Shown here in pieces: positions 17,041 to 47,329 of a stretch of 64,000 bases of DNA. The first letter of the stretch is position 1, and every line of letters starts with the position of its first letter. The notes beneath the pieces were generated by a model. That model had not been told where the DNA came from and ran no database searches. It saw only the letters and a program-made list of their open reading frames with translations. The stretch lies in NCBI RefSeq assembly GCF_024223415.1, contig NZ_CP100500.1; one strand, given 5' to 3'. This stretch comes from Escherichia coli. GTDB lineage: Bacteria; Pseudomonadota; Gammaproteobacteria; Enterobacterales; Enterobacteriaceae. A program made the position numbers and the translations under genes.

Positions 17041-17996
17041 TGAAGCAACTTTGGTTTGCCATGTCATTAGTGACAGGTAGCCTGTTATTCTCTGCTAACG
17101 CCTCGGCCACTCCCGCGTCCGGGGCGTTATTACAGCAGATGAACCTGGCCAGTCAGTCACTGAATTACGAGCTGTCATTCATCAGCATCAATAAACAGGG
17201 TGTTGAGTCTCTGCGTTATCGACATGCACGCCTCGATAACCGTCCTCTTGCACAATTGTTGCAAATGGATGGCCCGCGCCGGGAAGTGGTACAGCGCGGC
17301 AATGAAATCAGCTATTTTGAACCGGGACTTGAACCGTTCACGCTTAATGGCGATTACATTGTTGATTCTCTGCCATCGCTCATTTATACCGATTTCAAAC
17401 GCCTTTCTCCTTACTACGACTTTATCTCCGTCGGGCGCACGCGTATTGCTGATCGTCTTTGCGAAGTCATTCGCGTGGTTGCCCGAGATGGTACACGCTA
17501 CAGCTACATCGTGTGGATGGACACCGAATCGAAATTACCGATGCGGGTTGATCTTCTTGATCGCGATGGTGAAACGCTGGAACAATTTCGCGTGATTGCT
17601 TTTAACGTCAATCAGGATATCAGCAGCAGTATGCAGACGCTGGCGAAGGCAAATTTGCCGCCGTTGCTTTCTGTTCCTGTAGGTGAAAAAGCTAAATTCA
17701 GCTGGACGCCAACCTGGTTGCCACAGGGTTTTAGCGAAGTTTCCAGTAGTCGACGTCCGCTACCGACGATGGACAACATGCCTATCGAATCACGTCTCTA
17801 TTCCGACGGATTATTCAGCTTCTCGGTAAACGTTAACCGCGCTACGCCATCGAGCACCGATCAGATGTTGCGCACCGGACGCAGAACCGTCAGTACAAGC
17901 GTACGTGATAACGCCGAAATCACCATTGTCGGTGAACTGCCGCCGCAAACGGCGAAACGCATTGCCGAGAATATTAAGTTCGGGGCAGCGCAATGA
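17040..17996 (+). CDS. rseB: sigma-E regulatory protein RseB
   Basis: 318 aa with signal peptide; MKQLWFAMSLVTGSLLFSANASA... Confidence 0.95.
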   Translation: MKQLWFAMSLVTGSLLFSANASATPASGALLQQMNLASQSLNYELSFISINKQGVESLRYRHARLDNRPLAQLLQMDGPRREVVQRGNEISYFEPGLEPFTLNGDYIVDSLPSLIYTDFKRLSPYYDFISVGRTRIADRLCEVIRVVARDGTRYSYIVWMDTESKLPMRVDLLDRDGETLEQFRVIAFNVNQDISSSMQTLAKANLPPLLSVPVGEKAKFSWTPTWLPQGFSEVSSSRRPLPTMDNMPIESRLYSDGLFSFSVNVNRATPSSTDQMLRTGRRTVSTSVRDNAEITIVGELPPQTAKRIAENIKFGAAQ

Positions 17997-18472
17997 TCAA
18001 AGAGTGGGCTACCGTCGTCTCCTGGCAAAACGGGCAGGCGCTGGTCAGTTGTGATGTTAAAGCCTCATGCAGCAGCTGCGCTTCACGCGCCGGTTGCGGT
18101 AGCCGCGTGTTGAATAAACTTGGCCCGCAAACCACGCATACCATTGTCGTACCCTGTGATGAGCCGTTAGTGCCGGGGCAAAAAGTGGAATTGGGGATCG
18201 CCGAAGGCAGCCTGCTTAGCTCCGCATTACTGGTTTATATGTCGCCGCTGGTGGGATTATTCCTCATCGCTTCGCTATTTCAGCTACTCTTTGCTTCTGA
18301 CGTCGCAGCATTATGTGGTGCGGTCCTCGGCGGTATTGGCGGGTTCCTGATTGCGCGTGGCTACTCGCGTAAGTTTGCTGCCCGGGCAGAATGGCAACCG
18401 ATCATCTTAAGCGTGGCATTGCCGCCTGGCCTTGTGCGATTTGAAACATCTTCGGAAGACGCGAGCCAGTGA
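17993..18472 (+). CDS. rseC: sigma-E regulatory protein RseC
   Basis: 159 aa; MIKEWATVVSWQNGQALVSCDVKASCSSCASRAGCG... Confidence 0.93.
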   Translation: MIKEWATVVSWQNGQALVSCDVKASCSSCASRAGCGSRVLNKLGPQTTHTIVVPCDEPLVPGQKVELGIAEGSLLSSALLVYMSPLVGLFLIASLFQLLFASDVAALCGAVLGGIGGFLIARGYSRKFAARAEWQPIILSVALPPGLVRFETSSEDASQ

Positions 18473-18669
18473 TTTCACTGGCTTTGTTGCATTTTGCATA
18501 ACAAATGCGAGGACGTTTCCAGATACCACAATCCATACGGTATGAACATTTCCTCGCCTCAATGTTGTAGTGTAGAATGCGGCGTTTCTATTAATACAGA
18601 CGTTAAGCTCAGAACAGCGACTTCTAAAAGCCTGGTTAACCGGGCATTAAGGCACAATAATCATACTTT

Positions 18670-20469
<1,800 letters not shown>

Positions 20470-21510: not shown

Positions 21511-21700
21511 ATGAGATAAATCTCCCGTGGCTAACGACATCCCCCGTCGTTGTGTATAGAATATTCCCCCGAAGTTTAAGGTTGGCACCTCCAGGTTGCC
21601 ACGGCACACGAAACAGCGTTGGTCCCCATATACCGCTAAACTGAAACTGCAGCGAAGCAGTTAGCAGAGCCATGTATATCAGGTCTGTTTCGTGTGCTGA

Positions 21701-23313
<1,613 letters not shown>

Positions 23314-25176: not shown

Positions 25177-25202
25177 AAATAATACCGTTCTCTTTAAAAA
25201 GT

Positions 25203-25240
25203 AAAACCCCCGAACTGGTAAGGAACGGGGGTTTTACTTT
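25203..25240. terminator. acpS terminator hairpin (probably also terminates the antisense sRNA OhsC)
   Basis: 10-bp stem aaaacccccg/cgggggtttt with 13-nt loop; T tracts on both strands. Confidence 0.7.
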
Positions 25241-25290
25241 GTAACTTTAATTTAGTGCAGCACGCACCCTCAACAACAGCGATTATGGAT
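25205..25290 (-). ncRNA. ohsC: OhsC-like antitoxin sRNA of the shoB/ohsC type I TA locus (boundaries approximate)
   Basis: A 24-nt segment at 25254..25277 is, on the minus strand, complementary to 25502..25525 in the shoB 5' leader; the two mismatches both become G.U wobble pairs. Placement matches remembered literature that OhsC is divergent from shoB with short complementarity. Ends not determined. Confidence 0.5.
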
Positions 25291-32231: not shown

Positions 32232-32498
32232 AGTTTTATGTCCTTTGCAATATTTTGAATTCACCCCTTTTGAGAGGGCGGTCAGGCGCTCAAAACCGTG
32301 CAAAGTCGGCGGGCGTATTTCCCTTACGGGTATTGTATTAGCCTCACGCCCGACCATTGAATTCTCAATATCGTGGACATAAAAAATCCGCATGTCTGTC
32401 GGGTGCGGTTTCCGCTTTGCAAGGTGTTTTGAGCACCATGACGCGGAATATAGCCCCGTTAACGCGACATTGTCAAACTGAAGAATTTTACGGATAGC

Positions 32499-33410: not shown

Positions 33411-35477
33411 CTAATCTTTTCTGTAACGGTACGCCTCGAATCCTCCGGCGTTTAGTGGAATGCTCGTGGCCCAGTCAGGAACGGTTGCCAGTAACTGGCT
33501 GAGATGTTCTGCTGAGTAATCGGGTGAGTCAGGGGCCTCACTTATAATTTCATCGTGTACCGTCAGCACAATGCTGTAACCGGCATCTTCGATAAGCGGC
33601 ATGTTTCCGGCCAGAACGTCGCGGGCGGCCGCCTGGGTGACGTTCTCCACCAGCTTTCCGCCGTAGGTTTTGAGTCGTTGCCATTTACGCGAATAAGAGT
33701 TAACACCCATATAGGTGATATCCCCTTTTTCGATAACCGGAGACGGGTAGCATACAGCGCGTCCGGATGGTAGCTGTATGCGCAGCCACGCGCCATCGCG
33801 GCGGATTTTAAGATAACCGCAATACAATGTTTTTTGCGGTGTGGCGATTGCAGTGCGGACGGTGCGCTCCAGTTCGTACCAGAAATCGCAGGTCGCCGGG
33901 TGCGCCCTGCGCCACAGGCGCTTGAGCGAGTCACATGCGATGAATACACGCTCGGACAGGCCAAAGGTCGACTTACGTTTAACCGATTCGTCGTACCAGC
34001 TTTTCGCCTCGCGGATAACATCGCGGGGAATGTTTGGCAGTGCGGCGTTCGCCAGCTCGTCGAGATCGAGACCGTAAACCAGAGCAAAAGTGATGAAAGC
34101 CGATACACCACCTCCATAACCCAGACCGAGTTCCATGACTTTACCGATCTGACGCATGTGTTTATCAACATCATCTGGTGCAATATCGAAAGCTTTTGCA
34201 TACGCCAGTTTATATAAGTCCGGACCCGTTCCGGCGTCGTACTCTCTGAATGCATTCAGTTTCCATTCTTCTCCCGCCAGCCATGCCAGCATACGGCCTT
34301 CAATGTTCGACAAGTCACTTACCACCAGTTTTTTGCCTGTTGGCGCGATAATGCAGCCACGTAACGCTGAACTGGTTAGTTCCATGATATTGTCAAACAG
34401 CAGGTCTGCACATCCGGCTTTCAGTGCTTCGATGCCTTCGTCTATTTGTTCCTGTTTTAGTGAAGGGCGGGGAAGGTTCTGGGGCTGGAATAGCCGTCCG
34501 GCCCAACGACCGGTACGTGACGCCCCGCAGAACTGTAGCGTACCGCGTAAGCGCCCGTCGTGGCTTACGCCTTTCATCAGTGCCTTGTATTTACTGGTGC
34601 TGGTAGTACTGGCCTGCAGGCGGATAGCCAGCAGTTCTTTCACGGCAGATGGTAAATTGGGGTCGGCAATACGACGTTCCAGAGTACTGCGTTGCATGTC
34701 TGGTAGCTCCACACCGTAGGATTCAACAATGTGCTTAATCAACGCGTCCCGTTGTGTGGCTGCCTGCACTTCGCCATCAGTCATTTCCTGTGTACGCTTT
34801 GCCAGGCGCTTTTGCTCCTGGTCTACCGCTTCGATCGCAGCGCGCGCGAGTTGAATGTCCATGCAGACGCCCCGGTCGTTGATCTGCTGATCACGATGCC
34901 AGAGTGCCAGTTCTGTCCCCTGATAATTCCACTTCGGCAGACGTTTATAGACTTCGCGCATTGCCTCGATATCCAGTCCGGCGTAAGCAACAAAGCGCCG
35001 CCATTCTTCCGGGTGGGTTTTGCTGGTGGCCCGGCGCAGTTTGCTGTTTTTCGGGCGTGGTTTGCACAGTAGCTGAATTAGTGACTTGCCTTCTTTATCC
35101 TTCGCTTTGTCCTGCGGGACGCCCAGCACTTCGCAAAGAGCGCCCAGCGCCCCCGGAAGACCATGCGCCAGCGCCTGCACCATTGTGTCGCGCCAGCGTT
35201 CAGTAGCTGGTGACATGTCTGGCATACAATGACGAAGTATCGTGCGGTCAAAGTGCGAATTGTGCGCCCAAACCTCCACATCCGGGTTTTTGAGTGCGAG
35301 ACGTAATTCCGGGGGGATTTTTTCGCCTGCGGTCAGGTCCCACACCTGCACGGGATCGTTATTGATGGCCCAGGCAAAAAGCATAATTTCAGCGCCTTCT
35401 GCATATGCGTGGGTACCGTTTTTTATCGGTATTTCAGAGAAGGTTTCAAGATCGAGCCAGAGAATGTTTGCAGGCAA
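33411..35477 (-). CDS. family A DNA polymerase with 3'-5' exonuclease domain (phage-type)
   Basis: 688 aa; Exo I motif (LDLETFS), exo motif YAGLDI, polymerase motif B-like ([16 protein letters not shown]), motif C (TVHDEII). Confidence 0.8.
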
Positions 35478-35503
35478 AACAGGACCCTCCGTAAATTAAA
35501 CGG

Positions 35504-35990
35504 CTACAAAAAGCCCCTGACAGTGCAGGGGCGGGATTGATTTGAATTAACGAGGTAAGGCTGGTGGAATGTATCTGCCGATGCGGTCTTCTATGGTCGG
35601 CAGAATGCACATGCTGTCGCTGAAGCGGTCATGCAACTGGTAAACCAGTTTAGAATCCATTTTTTCGAGAGCAGGCATTAACTGCGCCCGCCAGATTTCG
35701 TTGATGCGCCGGAAGTTATGACAGACGGCGCGGAGATTGTTGATGAACATTTCCTTCTCTGCGTCAGTGACTTCTGTCTGTGTTTTCTGAATACGCTTTG
35801 TGCTGCCATTCCGATAGAAGCGTTCCTGAGCAGCAACAGCCTCATCCACGGTTGGATAGCACCCTACGTAAACGCTCTTCTCTCCGTTCCATGCGTAGGC
35901 TCTGTACGGGTTGTATTTGCTCCGGTGATGGTAAACCATCTTCGGCAGACACTCCCTGTGTGGCGCCAGTATCGTGGAGGATTGCTGGTG
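35504..35990. repeat. ~490-bp direct repeat, copy B (3' part of AntA-type gene + its terminator)
   Basis: See copy A. Confidence 0.85.
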
Positions 35991-36311: not shown

Positions 36312-36691
36312 AGTTACCTCTAACGGTGAAATTCACCGCCACCACTGAGTTGCAAATCTCATATGGGTGGCGAACTGACGAGGTTTGCAATACCGGCGTT
36401 AGAGGAAACCGGCGCGCCGAAGCGCCCCCGCCAGCCCGCCATAATGCGAACGTGGCAAAGCTTGCGACAATAAAAAAGACGCTGGCGCGTCTGGTGTCGC
36501 CCCTAACAATTCCGGGTTGCAAATCCCGATCTCCATTTGGGAGATTCGGTGAGCATAAACCGGAAGGGGGCGATGAGTCAATATCGGGGTAGCAGGGCGA
36601 CTGGGTGCTAACCAGAACAATACAGGTAGCTCCGGGCATATTCCCCTTTGCAAAAACACCCGGCGTTTAACCGGGCGTCTGTGAAGCAGGA

Positions 36692-43660: not shown

Positions 43661-44386
43661 ATGCTGGTGAATGATAAGGGGGTGCAGATGCTGACAGCAA
43701 TCAACAACGAAAAAATTGTCATCGCAAGGGACGCGCAGAAACCGGGAATTTTCGCCTGCCCGGAATGTGGTGAAGTTGTCACCCTGCGGAAAGGTTCGGT
43801 GAAAGTTCACCATTTCGCCCATCGCAGCACCACATCCTGCGGTTACGGGAAAGGCGAATCTGAGTTGCACATGGATTTGAAAATGCAGGTCTATGACGCG
43901 TTGAACGCGCATCGTGAGGTGGAATATGTTGCGATGGAGGTCGCAGTCGGTGATGTTCGTCCCGATGTGCTGGCGATTATTCGGGGTCAGAAGGTTGCTT
44001 TTGAGATTCAGGTTAGTTCGCTGAGTATTGAAGACCTCTATCGCCGCACGGTTGCGTACGCAGCTCAGGACATTGCGATGATCTGGATCCTGCACTGGCC
44101 TGAAGGTACTGCACTGGACCGGCTTTATCACCCTGCATCATGGGAGCGATGGTTACATACTTGCGGAATGGCAACTCTGTACTTCTGGGCGGGCGATGGC
44201 TGGGTCAGGCCAGTGCGTCTGGGAAACCGACAACATGGATTACAAAGAGCACCTCGTGCCCATCTGGTTGATGATTTCGAACCAAAGCGAACAGGCGGGT
44301 GGATTAAAGGTGATTTTCTGATACCTGCTCGCTTTATCTGGAATCGTGTGCGACGGCAAAAACGTAGAGGTCAGAGCTATGCGTAA
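43661..44386 (+). CDS. CoiA-like / PD-(D/E)xK-type nuclease family protein
   Basis: 241 aa; CPECG zinc ribbon, HHFAH, and DVRPDVLAI...AFEIQVSS resembling competence protein CoiA-like nucleases. Confidence 0.5.
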   Translation: MLVNDKGVQMLTAINNEKIVIARDAQKPGIFACPECGEVVTLRKGSVKVHHFAHRSTTSCGYGKGESELHMDLKMQVYDALNAHREVEYVAMEVAVGDVRPDVLAIIRGQKVAFEIQVSSLSIEDLYRRTVAYAAQDIAMIWILHWPEGTALDRLYHPASWERWLHTCGMATLYFWAGDGWVRPVRLGNRQHGLQRAPRAHLVDDFEPKRTGGWIKGDFLIPARFIWNRVRRQKRRGQSYA

Positions 44387-44813
44387 TATTCAACAGGTTT
44401 TAGAGCGCTGGGGTGGCTGGGCTGCCAATAGCAACACCACAGTGAGCTGGGCTCCAATAGCGGCGGGATTTAAAGGGCTGGTAGTCAGCAGCCTGCCTGG
44501 CAGGCTGAGTTGCTGCGACGACGATGGCCTGATTATCGATGCTTGCGTCTGTCGGCTGCAGCAGGTCCGTAAGCCTGAGGAACTGGACGTCATTATGCTG
44601 TACTACGTCTACGGGTTAAGCAAACGTGAGATAGGACGGCGGCGTCGATGTTCTGAAGGATTTATCCGCCAGCAGTTGCAGGTAGCTGAGGGATTCATTG
44701 AGGGGTGTCTCTGCATGCTGGGTGTGAGCCTTCAGATGGATCCTGAGGTCGAAATTCAAAGGGATGAAAAAAGTATTAGTGCGCTACGCAAAAACTGCGC
44801 TACGCTGGTATGA
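44379..44813 (+). CDS. late-gene antiterminator Q (phage 21/82-type)
   Basis: ORF 44346..44813; probable start MRNIQQVLERWGGWAANSN...; position directly upstream of the lysis cassette. Confidence 0.7.
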   Translation: MRNIQQVLERWGGWAANSNTTVSWAPIAAGFKGLVVSSLPGRLSCCDDDGLIIDACVCRLQQVRKPEELDVIMLYYVYGLSKREIGRRRRCSEGFIRQQLQVAEGFIEGCLCMLGVSLQMDPEVEIQRDEKSISALRKNCATLV

Positions 44814-44940
44814 GTTGAATTTCTGACCTCAACGAAGAGCTCCAAATTATTGGGGGTTTTTTGTACGCACAACAGGTAATAGTATTGAACCCGCAGACCT
44901 CGCGGAACTGGTGAAAGGTGCCGCGCAGTGCTCTTATCGT

Positions 44941-45070
44941 TGTGGTGAAGCTCAATGGCGAGCTAGCAGATAGGCGACAGTGAAAATACTAGTCATGTAT
45001 CTGACCGCCGCGCGTACTGCAATCGGCAGCGCACCGATGGAAGCCGGTTCGATTCCGGCCGCCACAACCC
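44941..45070 (+). other. tRNA-like element (canonical 3' half; 5' acceptor/D-arm match separated by ~58-nt insert) - probable degenerate phage tRNA or tRNA 3' fragment
   Basis: T-arm GCCGG-TTCGATT-CCGGC, anticodon-arm-like ATCGG-CAGCGCA-CCGAT, acceptor 3' strand CGCCACA complementary to TGTGGTG at 44941; does not fold as a canonical 76-nt tRNA. Confidence 0.3.
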
Positions 45071-45187
45071 AAACTGAGCCGTAGCCACTGGCTGTCCTGA
45101 ACTCCTCAGTGATAGTTACGCTGCGGCCTTCTTTTTCCCCTTCCTAATACAAGAACTACGCAATCCGTTACTGGCGGAGGCGTTGCT

Positions 45188-45403
45188 ATGAAATCAATGG
45201 ACAAAATCTCAACTGGCATTGCCTACGGAACATCCGCTGGTAGTGCGGGATACTGGTTTTTACAGTGGTTGGATCAGGTCAGTCCGTCACAGTGGGCTGC
45301 TATTGGTGTGCTGGGGAGTCTGGCACTGGGCTTTCTGACTTATCTGACGAATCTGTACTTCAAGATAAAAGAGGACCGTCGCAAGGCGGCGCGGGGAGAG
45401 TAA
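45188..45403 (+). CDS. holin (phage 21 S / EssD-like, class II)
   Basis: 71 aa; [45 protein letters not shown]... matches remembered DLP12 EssD/S21. Confidence 0.9.
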
Positions 45404-45407
45404 TTCA

Positions 45408-46343
45408 ATGGAACATAATAATGAAAAATCCAGAGAGCACTCTGGAAACAGCAAACATTATTCCATTGCTCATTCATTCGGCGGCTTTCGTGATGTAGTC
45501 GGACAGGGTGCTGAGAGAGAACAGGAGAGTAATACAATGACTCAAAACCATGAACTGGTTGTTAAAGGAACCCGAAATTTTGAGAATAAAATTGCGGTGA
45601 TTTTAACCCTGCGTGACAAAAAGCGTTTTGCCTGTGAGATATTTGACTTACACATCAACCTTGAACGACAGGAAGGCGCCACTCTGGAGTTTTATGAGTC
45701 AGAGGCAATAAAACGGGCAAAGACATTGTTCCGGGATGTTGCTGCAGGGTTATGTGAAGGGGACGAGCTGTCGCCGGAAAAGCGCCCCATAATTTTACAG
45801 GCGCACAATGTGTGGATAACCTACAAAGGAAAGCTACCGGGAAGAATTACTGGTTCTCTGAAGATGCCGCCGTCAACACTGCGGTCAGAAAAAGAGGCGT
45901 CTTGTCTGCAGTCTGAGTACTCCATTACGGTTAAAAGTGCCGGAGAGGAAGGAAATAAACGTTATTTTATTGCGTCTGCACCTGATAAAGATCAGGAATG
46001 GGAGTGTAACCGGCCATCCTTTGTTGTATACGGAGATGGCGGGAAAATAACCATCTCAGAAAATGGGAAATTAACACCGCCATCGCACCAGCATAGTGAG
46101 GCGCTCATTGAATTTGCCATTGATTACCTGAAGAACAATAAAAAGCAGGGGCTGATGAAGCGCATTGGTCGTTGCATGGGATATCTGCAGGTAGCAGCTG
46201 AGATTGAAATGATGGCCAGTGGTGCTGACAATGATGCAGTTGTGCTGGAGGCTCTTCTGCGTGATTTTGATAATACGCCCTTTAAGAAAGCACCTGTTGA
46301 CTGGATGCAGCCGGGGATGACTTATCTGAAAGGGCGTATATAA
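45408..46343 (+). CDS. hypothetical protein inserted between holin and endolysin (moron A; alternative start 45537)
   Basis: 311-aa ORF with RBS, starting 4 nt after holin stop; no recognisable motif; N-terminal 43 aa low complexity, so Met44 (MTQNHELVV..., RBS GGAGAG) may be the real start. Confidence 0.5.
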   Translation: MEHNNEKSREHSGNSKHYSIAHSFGGFRDVVGQGAEREQESNTMTQNHELVVKGTRNFENKIAVILTLRDKKRFACEIFDLHINLERQEGATLEFYESEAIKRAKTLFRDVAAGLCEGDELSPEKRPIILQAHNVWITYKGKLPGRITGSLKMPPSTLRSEKEASCLQSEYSITVKSAGEEGNKRYFIASAPDKDQEWECNRPSFVVYGDGGKITISENGKLTPPSHQHSEALIEFAIDYLKNNKKQGLMKRIGRCMGYLQVAAEIEMMASGADNDAVVLEALLRDFDNTPFKKAPVDWMQPGMTYLKGRI

Positions 46344-46795: not shown

Positions 46796-47329
46796 ATGAA
46801 CACCAAAATCAAATATGGCCTGTCGGCTGCCGTTCTGGCACTGATTGCCGTCGGTGCGCCTGCGCCTGATATTCTCGACCAGTTTCTGGATGAAAAAGAA
46901 GGTAACCACACAACGGCATACCGCGATGGTTCCGGTATATGGACCATCTGTCGTGGTGCCACAATGGTGGATGGTAAGCCCGTCATACCGGGAATGAAGC
47001 TGTCGAAGGAAAAATGCGTTCAGGTTAATGCCATTGAGCGTGATAGGGCGCTGGCATGGGTGGAGCGCAATATTAAAGTACCTCTGACCGAAGCACAGAA
47101 AGCGGGTATTGCGTCATTCTGTCCCTATAACATTGGCCCCGGTAAGTGTTTCCCGTCGACGTTTTATAAGCGGCTTAATGCCGGTGATCGTAAAGGTGCC
47201 TGTGAGTCGATTCGCTGGTGGATTAAGGACGGTGGGCGTGATTGCCGCACACGTTCAAATAACTGCTACGGACAGGTTATTCGTCGTGACCAGGAAGCAG
47301 CACTTGTGTGCTGGGATATCGACAGATGA
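46796..47329 (+). CDS. SAR endolysin (phage 21 R-type lysozyme)
   Basis: 177 aa; N-terminal signal-anchor-release helix (GLSAAVLALIAVGAPA); lysozyme core (TICRGAT...). Confidence 0.85.
   Translation: MNTKIKYGLSAAVLALIAVGAPAPDILDQFLDEKEGNHTTAYRDGSGIWTICRGATMVDGKPVIPGMKLSKEKCVQVNAIERDRALAWVERNIKVPLTEAQKAGIASFCPYNIGPGKCFPSTFYKRLNAGDRKGACESIRWWIKDGGRDCRTRSNNCYGQVIRRDQEAALVCWDIDR

What the first reader, a model, noticed from the sequence alone, without database searches (positions are those of the whole stretch)
44941..45070. tRNA-like element between Q and the holin gene with an apparently intact 3' half
Lambdoid phages often carry tRNA genes downstream of Q. Here a perfect T-arm (GCCGG TTCGATT CCGGC), a 5-bp/7-nt anticodon-arm-like hairpin and an acceptor 3' strand are present, and a complementary 5' acceptor strand plus D-arm-like hairpin lie ~58 nt too far upstream. 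It could be a degenerate tRNA, a tRNA 3' fragment left by an old integration/recombination event, or a tRNA-derived regulatory RNA.
Basis: seen in the sequence. Interest (0 to 1): 0.35.

Follow-up and report, generated by a model that had tools for sequence, protein, structure and literature searches.

The report
Five-armed tRNA-like RNA in phage leaders
The "broken tRNA" between the phage Q and holin genes is an intact, widely conserved tRNA-Arg-like RNA with a fifth arm whose tip appears able to pair two copies together, and I found no description of it in Rfam or in the papers searched.

Summary
Window 44939-45069 (+) holds a tRNA-like cloverleaf in which 57 nt separate the D arm from the anticodon-type arm. 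The "degenerate tRNA / integration relic" readings are wrong. The insert is a conserved fifth arm.

- ARAGORN and Rfam miss the element. Deleting the arm in silico makes ARAGORN call tRNA-Arg(GCG).
- I collected 143 copies (68 distinct) from enterobacterial phages and prophages.
- All six helices are supported: 94.9% of cells paired, and 22 of 36 pairs carry double compensatory changes.
- The arm's apical loop carries a hexamer that changes (ACUAGU, UCUAGA, UCGCGA, GCUAGC, ACCGGU, UCCGGA, UCUGGA) but is self-complementary in 68/68 sequences. Pairing between two copies (kissing-loop homodimer) is the only RNA-level reading I found.

The element sits in late-operon leaders (Q to holin, as here) and in N-gene leaders. 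There it replaces the interior of lambda's RNase III hairpin and keeps a covarying stem of about 20 bp. It also lies beside real tRNA genes in virulent Skatevirus phages, and upstream of a Tad2-like gene.

Most likely it is cut out of the leader by tRNA/RNase III processing and acts in trans as a dimeric tRNA-Arg mimic. Its target is unknown. It is a new variant of tRNA-like RNA.

The parts
44346..44813 (+). Antiterminator Q gene (context)
   Evidence: Pfam PF06530, E = 2.5e-50; ORF.
44840..44863 (+). tR'-like intrinsic terminator of the late leader (context)
   Evidence: CTCCAAATTATTGGGG followed by GTTTTTTGTA. The homologous position in HK75 is annotated Tr'.
44875..44938 (+). Leader hairpin A, which abuts the element. 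Its 3' strand CAGTGCTCTTATC is the boxA-like flank.
   Evidence: Minimum-free-energy fold of 44858-45150. The closing strands AAGAGCATTG / CAGTGCTCTT are also conserved in lambda and Skate.
44939..44947 (+). Acceptor stem, 5' strand GTTGTGGTG (9 bp; the canonical 7 bp start at 44941)
   Evidence: Pairs with 45060-45068. Six of 9 pairs show double changes and 97.9% of cells are paired.
44950..44963 (+). D arm GCTC-AATGGC-GAGC, with the GG of the D loop, preceded by AA at positions 8-9
   Evidence: 99.3% of cells paired; variation is C-G to U-G only.
44966..45020 (+). Extra (fifth) arm. Closing helix GCAG/CTGC is 44966-69 with 45017-20. The internal loop is ATA (44970-72) opposite GCGCGTA (45010-16). 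The inner helix is 44973-80 with 45001-09. The apical region is 44981-45000.
   Evidence: Closing helix: 3 of 4 pairs show double changes. Inner helix: 8 of 9 pairs show double changes. The internal-loop bases CGTA are invariant or nearly so. G44 A45 A46 opposite (A/U)58 G59 U60 A61 resembles a bulged-G (sarcin-ricin type) motif (assigned by eye).
44988..44993 (+). Self-complementary hexamer ACTAGT in the apical loop; proposed kissing-loop dimerisation site
   Evidence: Self-complementary in 68/68 distinct sequences across 7 different hexamers. 100% of 204 cells paired against 71% in shuffles. Four different palindromes occur on one identical arm background, and no other segment of the element is complementary to it.
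45022..45038 (+). Anticodon-type arm ATCGG-CAGCGCA-CCGAT; anticodon position GCG at 45029-45031
   Evidence: The stem covaries as ATCAG/CTGAT, ATAGG/CCTAT and ATTGG/CCAAT. The loop is Y-N-K-CGCA, with A33 and C37 non-canonical.
45039..45042 (+). Variable loop GGAA (4 nt, class I length)
   Evidence: Read from the sequence; conserved in A3.
45043..45059 (+). T arm GCCGG-TTCGATT-CCGGC
   Evidence: Three of 5 pairs show double changes and 99.4% of cells are paired. The T loop UUCGAYU is canonical.
45060..45072 (+). Acceptor 3' strand CGCCACAAC (45060-68), then C-CAA. Read with an 8-bp stem this becomes C + CCA.
   Evidence: N-leader relatives have A + CCA after the 9-bp stem.
45078..45141 (+). 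Downstream hairpin C (GCCGTAGC...GCTGCGGC) followed by CCTTCTTTTTCCCC; terminator-like (context)
   Evidence: Fold. The segment is shared with lambda and HK75.
45188..45403 (+). Holin gene (context)
   Evidence: Pfam PF04971, P21 holin S family, E = 1.1e-35.

Best explanation
The element is a gene for a structured RNA derived from an arginine tRNA. It has a complete cloverleaf: a 9-bp acceptor stem, a D arm, an anticodon-type arm with an NCG anticodon, a 4-nt variable loop and a canonical T arm. A fifth arm of 55 nt is inserted between the D arm and the anticodon arm.

SHOWN:
- The fold is conserved and covaries.
- The family moves between unrelated phages and between different positions in them.
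- The tip of the fifth arm keeps a 6-nt self-complementary sequence through repeated double substitutions.

INFERRED:
- In this window the RNA is made only when Q lets RNA polymerase read through tR' into the late leader.
- It is then cut out by tRNA-processing enzymes (RNase P at the 5' side, then 3' trimming and CCA repair).
- In the N-leader relatives it is cut out by RNase III in the 20-bp stem that is homologous to lambda's N-leader RNase III site.
- Two released molecules pair through the palindromic loop into a kissing homodimer.
- The dimer acts in trans as a mimic of tRNA-Arg. It keeps the D-loop/T-loop elbow and positions 35-38 (CGCA) of the anticodon loop, but has A33, C37, A8 and no A20, so it is unlikely to decode.

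My best guess for the target is a host factor that recognises tRNA-Arg or tRNAs in general. Examples are a tRNA-cleaving defence nuclease that it would decoy, or a processing or modifying enzyme.

Sub-probabilities:
- Real selected structured RNA: about 0.95.
- Excised stable RNA acting in trans: about 0.5.
- Dimer through the hexamer: about 0.6.
- Decoy for a tRNA-targeting defence: about 0.2.
For: Structure:
- 68 distinct sequences give 94.9% paired cells against 84.0% in shuffles. 22 of 36 pairs show double changes (0 of 500 shuffles reach this). Controls with partners slid by 1-3 columns give 28-47% paired.
- Removing the arm yields an ARAGORN tRNA-Arg(GCG), or (TCG) in L007.
- One RefSeq record annotates a 127-nt tRNA-Arg at this spot.

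Palindrome:
- establish it.
- The series UCUAGA, UCUGGA (G.U), UCCGGA occurs on one identical arm background. A G.U intermediate points to RNA pairing.

Trans action:
- In Skatevirus the element lies with real tRNA genes on the strand opposite its neighbours. Sigma-70-like promoters lie upstream, and a hairpin followed by a T-run (read by eye; the terminator scan found none) follows the tRNA.
- In L132 and L135 a tRNA-Arg(TCT) starts 5 nt after the element.
- The same RNA is kept in at least five contexts with different downstream genes: N, three holin families, Tad2-like and Gp49-like.

Excision:
- In the N-leader class the flanks extend the acceptor helix to 20 pairs with one bulged A. Eleven of these pairs show double changes and 96.8% of cells are paired.
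- L078 and L113 match lambda in nutL, the lower stem, the Shine-Dalgarno region and the start of N as read; the interior of the hairpin is what differs.
- That lambda hairpin is the structured, RNase III-modulated N leader (PMC5725501 and PMC5371410, citing Steege 1987 and Wilson 2002).

Non-decoding features: A33, C37 and A8 are read directly from alignment A3.
Against: - There are no expression, processing or dimerisation data. Nothing here shows that a discrete RNA of about 130 nt exists.
- In most contexts the element lies just upstream of a gene on the same strand. That fits a cis role equally well.
- A 6-bp kissing contact is weak on its own.
- No partner protein is identified. No phage gene co-occurs with the element across the contexts examined (flanking ORFs only).
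- An encoded CCA is not conserved. Skatevirus copies have none, and window-type copies have one only in an 8-bp register.
- The RNase III cut positions in lambda (+88/89 and +197/198) are from my memory, not from a held paper.
- The search patterns used to collect homologues fixed parts of the D arm or the anticodon arm. Invariance of those segments is therefore partly imposed.
Confidence: 0.5

Rival explanations
1. The element is a cis-acting leader module. A tRNA-shaped domain placed ahead of the first gene of a transcription unit serves as a processing and insulation signal. RNase P or RNase III would cut there, separating the nut or terminator leader from the coding part. This would set the 5' end and so the stability or translation of the downstream mRNA. 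The released RNA would be a by-product.
For: - The element sits on the same strand, upstream of a gene, in most loci. It lies 23-26 nt before the N start codon in the 13 loci of the main N-like downstream-ORF cluster. It also precedes holins and Tad2-like or Gp49-like genes.
- In the N leader it occupies exactly the hairpin whose RNase III processing modulates N translation in lambda (PMC5725501).
- Lambda keeps only the closing stem at both sites. This shows that the stem alone can be sufficient there.
Against: - Selection reaches far beyond what a cleavage signal needs. The anticodon-loop bases CGCA are invariant, the internal-loop bases CGTA invariant or nearly so, and a palindrome is maintained by double substitutions.
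- In Skatevirus no ORF of any substance follows on that strand. The nearest same-strand ORF is about 46 codons and 230-320 nt away; what directly follows are tRNA genes.
- The distance to the downstream gene varies from 23 to more than 300 nt.
Confidence: 0.25
2. The element is a working decoding tRNA-Arg (anticodon GCG or UCG). Either the fifth arm is tolerated on the ribosome like a long variable arm, or it is removed by an unknown splicing route. The tRNA would supply CGY or CGR decoding when the host tRNA-Arg(ICG) is depleted or attacked. The odd anticodon loop would make it resistant.
For: - ARAGORN recognises a tRNA-Arg once the arm is deleted.
- PGAP annotated one copy as tRNA-Arg.
- Position 34 varies G/U while C35 and G36 stay fixed, so the anticodon always reads Arg.
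- The element sits in the slot where lambdoid and P22-like phages carry real tRNAs (PMC8022706), and it lies in tandem with real tRNAs.
- Several classes have NCCA at the end of the stem.
- The Arg codons at the start of lambda-type N are CGC or CGT.
Against: - A33 replaces the near-universal U33. C37 replaces a purine. A8 replaces U8. The D loop has 6 nt and lacks A20, which is the main E. coli ArgRS identity element (established knowledge, quoted from memory).
- The acceptor stem is 9 bp.
- CGY codons are already served by the most abundant host Arg tRNA, so there is no rare-codon rationale.
- A dimerising loop is hard to reconcile with ribosome entry.
- No bacterial mechanism is known for removing a 57-nt insert at position 26/27. 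The junction is not a bulge-helix-bulge motif (read from the sequence).
Confidence: 0.12
3. The element is a decaying tRNA pseudogene, or the 3' tRNA fragment of an old att site that lies near a chance 5' half. These were the first reader's first two options.
For: ARAGORN and Rfam do not call it. Phage att sites often contain 3' halves of tRNAs.
Against: - Whole-length conservation in 143 loci, with compensatory changes in every helix including the 'spacer'.
- Exactly one full-length copy in the window, scoring 153 bits.
- The element is not next to an integrase. It sits inside transcription units.
Confidence: 0.02
4. The conserved feature is a DNA site, not an RNA. For example, the palindromic hexamer could be the binding site of a dimeric protein, or the element could be a recombination hotspot that shuffles leader cassettes.
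For: - The hexamers are DNA palindromes (ACTAGT, TCTAGA, TCGCGA and others).
- Lambda shares only the outer stem sequences at two loci. This suggests that recombination breakpoints lie there.
Against: - A protein site would keep its sequence, not merely its symmetry.
- The G.U-type intermediate TCTGGA is symmetric only at the RNA level.
- All the other covariation is strand-specific RNA pairing that includes G.U pairs.
Confidence: 0.03

Closest known systems
Bacterial class I tRNA-Arg (E. coli argQ type; Rfam RF00005)
   Same: The acceptor, D, anticodon and T arms are in the canonical order with a 4-nt variable loop. The T loop is UUCGAYU and the D loop has GG. The anticodon is NCG. ARAGORN calls tRNA-Arg after in-silico removal of the arm.
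   Different: A 55-nt structured arm lies between positions 26 and 27. The acceptor stem is 9 bp. A8, A33 and C37 are present and A20 is absent. The native sequence is not detected by ARAGORN or Rfam.
Phage T4 stable RNAs, species 1 and 2 (rnaC, rnaD)
   Same: They are phage-encoded stable RNAs of about 120-140 nt, encoded in a tRNA gene cluster right after tRNA-Arg. rnaC has a canonical T arm (CCGGG UUCGAAU CCCGG), a terminal closing stem and long extra hairpins. Their function is still unknown (from memory).
   Different: There is no sequence homology; model R1 scores 13 bits on rnaC. The arm layout differs. I saw no D arm and no palindromic loop.
Lambda N-leader RNase III hairpin (between nutL and N)
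   Same: In the N-leader class the lower stem (GGCUUUGG / CCAAAGCU), the bulged A and the first 6 bp of the upper stem (GGUGUG / CACACC) match lambda. The position between boxB and the N Shine-Dalgarno sequence is the same.
   Different: Lambda's interior of about 88 nt is unrelated and not tRNA-like; model R1 gives no hit beyond the closing stem. The window copy lies in the late leader and has no such lower stem.
tRNA-like domain of tmRNA (RF00023), and YrlA, a tRNA-like Y RNA
   Same: These are bacterial or phage RNAs that keep the acceptor/T-arm/elbow mimicry while replacing or extending the anticodon side. Rfam gives a weak hit to the tRNA-like domain of tmRNA, 20.2 bits at 45012-45070.
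   Different: The hit is below the gathering score of 47. There is no tag reading frame and there are no pseudoknots. No YrlA hit appears at E up to 10. Here the anticodon arm is retained and the addition is a separate arm.
Kissing-loop dimerisation sites (HIV-1 DIS type)
   Same: A 6-nt self-complementary sequence sits centrally in an apical loop with A-rich flanks. It varies between lineages and always stays palindromic.
   Different: The context is a small tRNA-like RNA from a dsDNA phage, not a retroviral genome. Dimerisation is inferred from covariation only.

Membership tests
Canonical tRNA (ARAGORN; Rfam RF00005) | Detected by tRNA gene finders or by the covariance model at the curated threshold | tested here: not met
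   ARAGORN finds 0 genes in the window. There is no tRNA hit at gathering score or at E up to 10. It is met only after the fifth arm is deleted in silico.
Canonical tRNA (ARAGORN; Rfam RF00005) | Four-arm cloverleaf with one nucleotide (26) between the D stem and the anticodon stem | tested here: not met
   58 nt (44964-45021, position 26 included) lie between the D stem and the anticodon-type stem. They form a conserved, covarying fifth arm.
Canonical tRNA (ARAGORN; Rfam RF00005) | T arm with the T-loop consensus, GG in the D loop, and a paired acceptor stem | tested here: met
   GCCGG-UUCGAUU-CCGGC, D loop AAUGGC, and an acceptor stem of 9 bp. All are conserved or covary.
Canonical tRNA (ARAGORN; Rfam RF00005) | U33 and a purine at position 37 in a 7-nt anticodon loop; U8 | tested here: not met
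   The loop is C-A-G-C-G-C-A, with A33 and C37. Only 1 of 68 distinct sequences has U33 (L152). Position 8 is A.
Canonical tRNA (ARAGORN; Rfam RF00005) | Aminoacylation and use in decoding | not testable with these tools
   This needs ArgRS charging assays or acid-gel Northern blots.
Intron-containing bacterial tRNA (group I intron) | Intron in the anticodon loop, about 200 nt or more, with a group I core | tested here: not met
   The insert is 57 nt and lies between the D and anticodon arms. No intron family hit appears in Rfam at E up to 10.
tmRNA (RF00023) | Score at or above the gathering threshold; a tag reading frame and pseudoknots between the halves of the tRNA-like domain | tested here: not met
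   20.2 bits against a gathering score of 47. The model's 316 internal positions are deleted in the alignment. ARAGORN finds no tmRNA.
YrlA / bacterial Y RNA | Match to the Rfam family; a Ro (Rsr)-binding helix formed by the 5' and 3' ends | tested here: not met
   There is no hit at E up to 10. The 5' and 3' ends form the acceptor stem. The presence of an rsr gene nearby was not examined.
RNase III processing stem of the lambda N leader | A helix of about 20 bp formed by sequences flanking the excised part, homologous to the lambda site | tested here: not met
   It is not met for the window copy. The fold of 44858-45150 shows no flank pairing beyond the 9-bp stem. It is met for the 33 distinct N-leader relatives and by direct comparison with lambda.
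Kissing-loop homodimer RNAs | A self-complementary loop sequence maintained by covariation | tested here: met
   68/68 distinct sequences, 7 hexamers, and 100% of cells paired against 71% in shuffles.
Kissing-loop homodimer RNAs | Physical dimer formation | not testable with these tools
   This needs native gels, SEC-MALS or cryo-EM, with compensatory loop mutants.

The most novel reading that the evidence does not exclude
Enterobacterial phages carry a mobile RNA 'moron'. It is a five-armed tRNA-Arg mimic, cut out of operon leaders by the host's own RNase P or RNase III. It assembles into a kissing-loop homodimer and neutralises a host factor that acts on tRNA, most attractively a tRNA-cleaving anti-phage nuclease. 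That would make it an RNA-only counter-defence. A variant of this reading is that it is the first functional tRNA with a fifth arm.
Probability: 0.2. Interest if true: 0.85.

Novelty: new variant of a known kind. Interest (0 to 1): 0.62.

Why it matters
Lambda-type leaders are among the best-studied stretches of DNA in biology. Yet relatives of lambda carry a conserved, elaborately structured RNA exactly where lambda has its N-leader RNase III hairpin and its late-leader spacer.

- The family is absent from Rfam 15.
- It is unannotated in the RefSeq E. coli records I inspected, except for one automatic 'tRNA-Arg' call (174 of 5,426 complete genomes carry it).
- It is present in 174 of 5,426 complete E. 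coli genomes and in phages used against Salmonella.

If it is an excised dimeric tRNA mimic, four things follow.
1. It adds a new architecture to the small set of tRNA-like RNAs (tmRNA, Y RNA, T4 species 1).
2. It gives a testable model for how structured RNA cargo rides inside processing stems of phage operons.
3. It may explain the function of long-mysterious phage 'stable RNAs'.
4. It may reveal an RNA-based way of dealing with host tRNA-directed enzymes or defences.

On the practical side, gene finders currently miss it or mis-call it. One phage record has a 58-nt 'tRNA-Ser' and one genome has a 127-nt 'tRNA-Arg'.

Tried and rejected
- ARAGORN on the window and on homologous loci gave no call for the element.
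- Rfam gave nothing at gathering score. At E up to 10 there was only a sub-threshold tmRNA hit.
- I took the upstream flank GTGCTCTT(T/A) for a boxA (NusB/S10 site). I rejected this because it is the 3' strand of leader hairpin A, pairing with AAGAGCATTG.
- I considered that the loop CUAG pairs with the CUAG that follows the D stem (a pseudoknot). I rejected this because that segment does not change when the loop becomes CGCG or CCGG. It is fully complementary in only 1 of 68 sequences.
- I considered a pseudoknot between the anticodon-loop GCGC and the internal-loop GCGCG. Both are invariant, so there is no evidence either way.
- I considered a K-turn in the internal loop and an archaeal bulge-helix-bulge intron junction. 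By inspection the sequence fits neither.
- Descent from 933W ileZ, argN or argO: the alignments show only generic tRNA similarity.
- Lambda's interiors as decayed copies of the element: model R1 with filters off matches only the closing stem.
- The minimum-free-energy hairpin CUGC-AAUCG-GCAG is not conserved in PdC23 and other homologues. The conserved pairing is AUCGG/CCGAU.
- A second copy in the same phage as a hetero-kissing partner: no viral contig yielded two loci, and the window has a single hit.
- Nine full-text literature searches found no description of the element.
- The papers with the lambda RNase III cut sites (Wilson 2002, Wilson 1997) are not held.
Full report
**1. What is at the coordinates**

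The window around the finding reads, on the + strand:
- a Q antiterminator gene, 44346-44813 (Pfam PF06530, E = 2.5e-50);
- a tR'-like intrinsic terminator, 44840-44863;
- the element;
- a P21-type holin gene, 45188-45403 (PF04971, E = 1.1e-35).

- T arm GCCGG-TTCGATT-CCGGC, 45043-45059;
- a 5-bp/7-nt hairpin ATCGG-CAGCGCA-CCGAT, 45022-45038;
- a 3' acceptor strand, 45060-45068;
- the complementary 5' strand, 44939-44947;
- a D-arm hairpin GCTC-AATGGC-GAGC, 44950-44963.

The two halves are separated by 57 nt. ARAGORN finds no tRNA in the whole window. Rfam finds nothing there at gathering score. At E up to 10 it finds only a 20-bit match to the tRNA-like domain of tmRNA. The 140-nt stretch folds much better than shuffles, z = -3.5.

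**2. It is a conserved family, not a wreck**

BLAST against phage records found the 143-nt core at 91-99% identity:
- in lambdoid phages (HK75 and others, between Tr' and the holin gene);
- in about 80 virulent Salmonella phage records, those inspected being Skatevirus, where it lies on the strand opposite to its neighbours.

More distant copies (73-81% identity) occur in Pantoea phage PdC23, in Salmonella phage gmqsjt-1 and in the P22-like phage BIS08P22.

Together these sources gave 143 loci and 68 distinct sequences, aligned as A3.

I derived a structure by eye and counted it on A3:
- 94.9% of cells are standard pairs, against 84.0% in column shuffles.
- 22 of 36 pairs show changes on both sides; 0 of 500 shuffles reach this.
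- Versions with partners slid by 1-3 columns give 28-47% paired.

Each helix is supported.

| Helix | Pairs with double changes |
|---|---|
| Acceptor stem (9 bp) | 6 |
| T stem | 3 of 5 |
| Anticodon-type stem (ATCAG/CTGAT, ATAGG/CCTAT, ATTGG/CCAAT) | 2 |
| Closing helix of the insert | 3 of 4 |
| Inner helix of the insert | 8 of 9 |

A covariance model built from A3 hits the window exactly once, at 44939-45069, with 152.9 bits.

**3. Anatomy**

The 57 nt are a fifth arm with these parts:
- a 4-bp closing helix (GCAG/CUGC; elsewhere GGG/CCC, GUGU/ACAC, GAG/CUC, GCGA/UCGC);
- an asymmetric internal loop, AUA opposite GCGCGUA, in which CGUA is invariant or nearly so;
- a 9-bp inner helix;
- a stretch G-A-A opposite (A/U)-G-U-A that looks like a bulged-G motif (my assignment);
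- an 11-nt apical loop.

When the arm is deleted in silico, ARAGORN calls a 73-nt tRNA-Arg(GCG) with a 7-bp acceptor at default settings for the window, PdC23 and L071 copies. At a relaxed threshold it does so for all six copies tested, with anticodon TCG in L007.

The body departs from working tRNAs in several ways:
- A8-A9 instead of U8;
- a 6-nt D loop without A20;
- A33 and C37;
- two extra acceptor pairs that clearly covary.

Position 34 varies G/U, while C35-G36-C37-A38 are invariant.

One caveat applies. The scan words fixed either the D arm or the anticodon arm, so some of that invariance is imposed. Each arm was, however, free to vary in the scan anchored on the other arm.

**4. The palindromic loop**

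The six central loop bases (44988-44993, ACTAGT) are self-complementary in all 68 distinct sequences, although seven different hexamers occur:

| Hexamer | Distinct sequences |
|---|---|
| ACUAGU | 33 |
| UCUAGA | 13 |
| UCGCGA | 13 |
| GCUAGC | 4 |
| UCUGGA | 2 |
| ACCGGU | 2 |
| UCCGGA | 1 |

- Counted as three 'pairs', 100% of 204 cells are complementary, against 71% in shuffles.
- On one identical arm background (AUAGUUUUGCGG) four palindromes are found, including the G.U intermediate UCUGGA between UCUAGA and UCCGGA.
- The U-A to C-G switch also arose separately on the other arm type, as ACUAGU to ACCGGU.
- No other six-column window of the element is complementary to the hexamer across the family.

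Adjacent bases cannot pair within one molecule. The G.U intermediate is symmetric only as RNA. Pairing between two copies (a kissing-loop homodimer) is therefore the only RNA-level reading I found; a dimeric-protein DNA site is scored separately as a low-probability rival. It remains an inference from covariation.

**5. Where the family sits**

- *Late leaders of the window/HK75 type: 54 loci.* The element lies about 136 nt after Q and before the holin gene.
- *Late leaders where two near-identical terminators flank it: 22 loci*.
- *N leaders: 37 loci.*
- *Skatevirus: 7 loci.*
- *Several smaller classes.* One is an islet on the opposite strand between the portal and terminase genes, 207 nt upstream of a Tad2-like (Thoeris anti-defence) gene.

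In Skatevirus the unit runs as follows:
- sigma-70-like promoters;
- a segment homologous to the lambda late leader;
- the element;
- one or two real tRNA genes (Ile-AAT, Arg-TCT or Met/Ile-CAT);
- a hairpin followed by a T-run, read by eye (the terminator scan found none).

In L132 and L135 a tRNA-Arg(TCT) begins 5 nt after the element. Real tRNA genes are known in this late-leader slot in P22-like phages L and Sf6 (PMC8022706) and in 933W.

Among species-representative genomes the element was found only in Enterobacteriaceae, apart from one probable contaminant MAG. It occurs in 174 of 5,426 complete E. coli genomes, unannotated except for one 127-nt 'tRNA-Arg'. One phage record calls its last 58 nt 'tRNA-Ser'.

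**6. The link to lambda's N leader**

In the N-leader class the flanks pair and lengthen the acceptor helix to 20 pairs with one bulged A. Eleven of these pairs show double changes and 96.8% of cells are paired.

Loci L078 and L113 carry lambda's nutL (boxA, boxB), lambda's Shine-Dalgarno region and the start of lambda N. They match lambda across the regions read, except inside the leader hairpin:
- lambda has GGCUUUGG-GGUGUGUG-[about 88 nt]-CACACACC-A-CCAAAGCU;
- L078 and L113 have GGCUUUGG-GGUGUGGUG-[tRNA-like body]-CACCACACC-A-CCAAAGCU.

That lambda hairpin is the structured N leader whose RNase III processing modulates N translation (PMC5725501 and PMC5371410, citing Wilson 2002 and Steege 1987).

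From memory, the cuts are at +88/89 and +197/198 of the pL RNA. On the sequence these fall at GG|GGUGUG and ...CACC-ACC|AAAGC. That is a 2-nt stagger, as RNase III makes, which supports the recollection.

By homology, the same cuts would release the tRNA-like RNA with its 9-bp acceptor stem and a 3' end ...A-C-C. That is one A short of ACCA, a substrate for the CCA-adding enzyme. This step is inferred.

Lambda's late leader likewise keeps only the closing stem GUUGUGCUG/CAGCACAAC around an unrelated 65-nt interior.

The window copy has no such lower stem. It is bracketed by leader hairpin A (44875-44938) and by a terminator-like hairpin C (45078-45127 plus a T-run). Its excision would therefore have to rely on RNase P and 3' trimming. 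Its 3' flank reads C-CCA in an 8-bp register.

**7. Interpretation**

What is shown is a selected, mobile, tRNA-Arg-derived RNA structure with a fifth arm and a symmetry-constrained loop.

I consider it most likely (about 0.5) that the RNA is excised and acts in trans as a dimeric tRNA mimic. The reasons are:
- conservation goes far beyond what a cleavage signal needs;
- in Skatevirus it is a free-standing gene among tRNAs, with no ORF of any substance downstream on that strand;
- the same RNA is kept ahead of quite different genes.

Its A33, C37, A8 and 9-bp stem, together with the dimer loop, argue against decoding. The retained elbow and the C35-G36 argue that something which reads tRNA, or tRNA-Arg specifically, is the partner. 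A tRNA-directed defence nuclease is an attractive guess (about 0.2) with no direct support. The Tad2-like neighbour is only a faint hint.

The main rival (about 0.25) is a purely cis role as a processing and insulation module for the downstream gene, which the N-leader homology supports. A true decoding tRNA with a fifth arm remains possible (about 0.12). Pseudogene, att-relic and DNA-site readings are effectively excluded.

**8. Comparison with known systems, and novelty**

The element works like a tRNA gene embedded in an operon leader, and in part like lambda's RNase III hairpin. It is not a member of any family tested: tRNA, tmRNA, YrlA or group I intron-containing tRNA (see the membership table).

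The nearest functional analogue I know is T4 species 1 RNA (rnaC). That is a 139-nt stable RNA with a T arm and a closing stem, encoded after tRNA-Arg in the T4 tRNA cluster. It is not homologous.

Nine literature searches found no description. I rate the element a new variant of a known kind (tRNA-like RNAs), with interest 0.62.

Noticed in passing
L167 (lambda 34900-35700) about 486-603 on the minus strand; L004 (lambda 43800-45600) 1058-1143: Lambda keeps the outer stem of the element at two loci but has unrelated interiors. One is the N-leader RNase III hairpin (GGUGUGUG/CACACACC). The other is a late-leader three-way structure (GUUGUGCUG/CAGCACAAC; fold -28.8 kcal/mol, z = -3.1). Leader hairpins seem to act as slots in which RNA 'cargo' is exchanged.
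   Followed up: partly
window 45078-45141: A long hairpin (GCCGTAGC...GCTGCGGC) followed by CCTTCTTTTTCCCC lies between the element and the holin gene. It is shared with lambda and HK75. It is terminator-like, and I know of no described function for it. PasA and PasC sRNAs of pathogenic E. coli are reported directly next to holin-lysozyme operons (bioRxiv 10.64898/2026.05.13.724894). I did not check whether they map here.
   Followed up: no
L013 11656-12270 (also the Klebsiella locus L162): In one class the element and a Tad2-like (Thoeris anti-defence 2, PF11195, E = 1.4e-23) gene form a small unit. It lies on the strand opposite to the flanking portal and terminase genes.
   Followed up: partly
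window 17957-18788, 21571-21785, 25198-25274: Rfam hits to AsrC (antisense of rseC), rncO and ohsC place the left part of the window in an Escherichia-type rseC-rnc-shoB/ohsC chromosomal region. The prophage begins to the right of it. The best E. coli match to the Q-holin segment is only 95.6% identical, so the host may not be among the complete E. coli genomes searched.
   Followed up: no
window 32272-32355, 36363-36446, 36472-36545 (all minus strand): Three prophage-borne RNA family hits were found: sRNA-Xcc1 (79.8 bits), a C4-type antisense RNA (70.6 bits) and, 26 nt away, an isrK-type RNA just at threshold (50.9 against 50).
   Followed up: no
window 43661-44386 and 45408-46343: A CoiA-like ORF (annotated 'competence protein CoiA' in the E. 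coli homologue) overlaps the start of Q. A 311-aa DUF1327 protein sits between the holin gene and the lysozyme-like ORF at 46796-47329.
   Followed up: no
L001 2587-2644 (PQ186186.1); L164 703-829 (NZ_CM160040.1): Automatic annotation is inconsistent. One phage record calls the last 58 nt 'tRNA-Ser'. One RefSeq genome nt 'tRNA-Arg'. The other E. coli records inspected, and most phage records, leave the element blank or place spurious small ORFs over it ('polyubiquitin-A', 'hypothetical protein').
   Followed up: yes
L158 4320-4450 (Cellvibrionaceae MAG contig JAUVQU010000080.1): The element copy in a marine MAG contig matches the consensus E. coli/HK75-type sequence as displayed in the alignment (153 bits; one base differs from the window). 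This is probably contamination of the bin, not a true occurrence outside Enterobacteriaceae.
   Followed up: no
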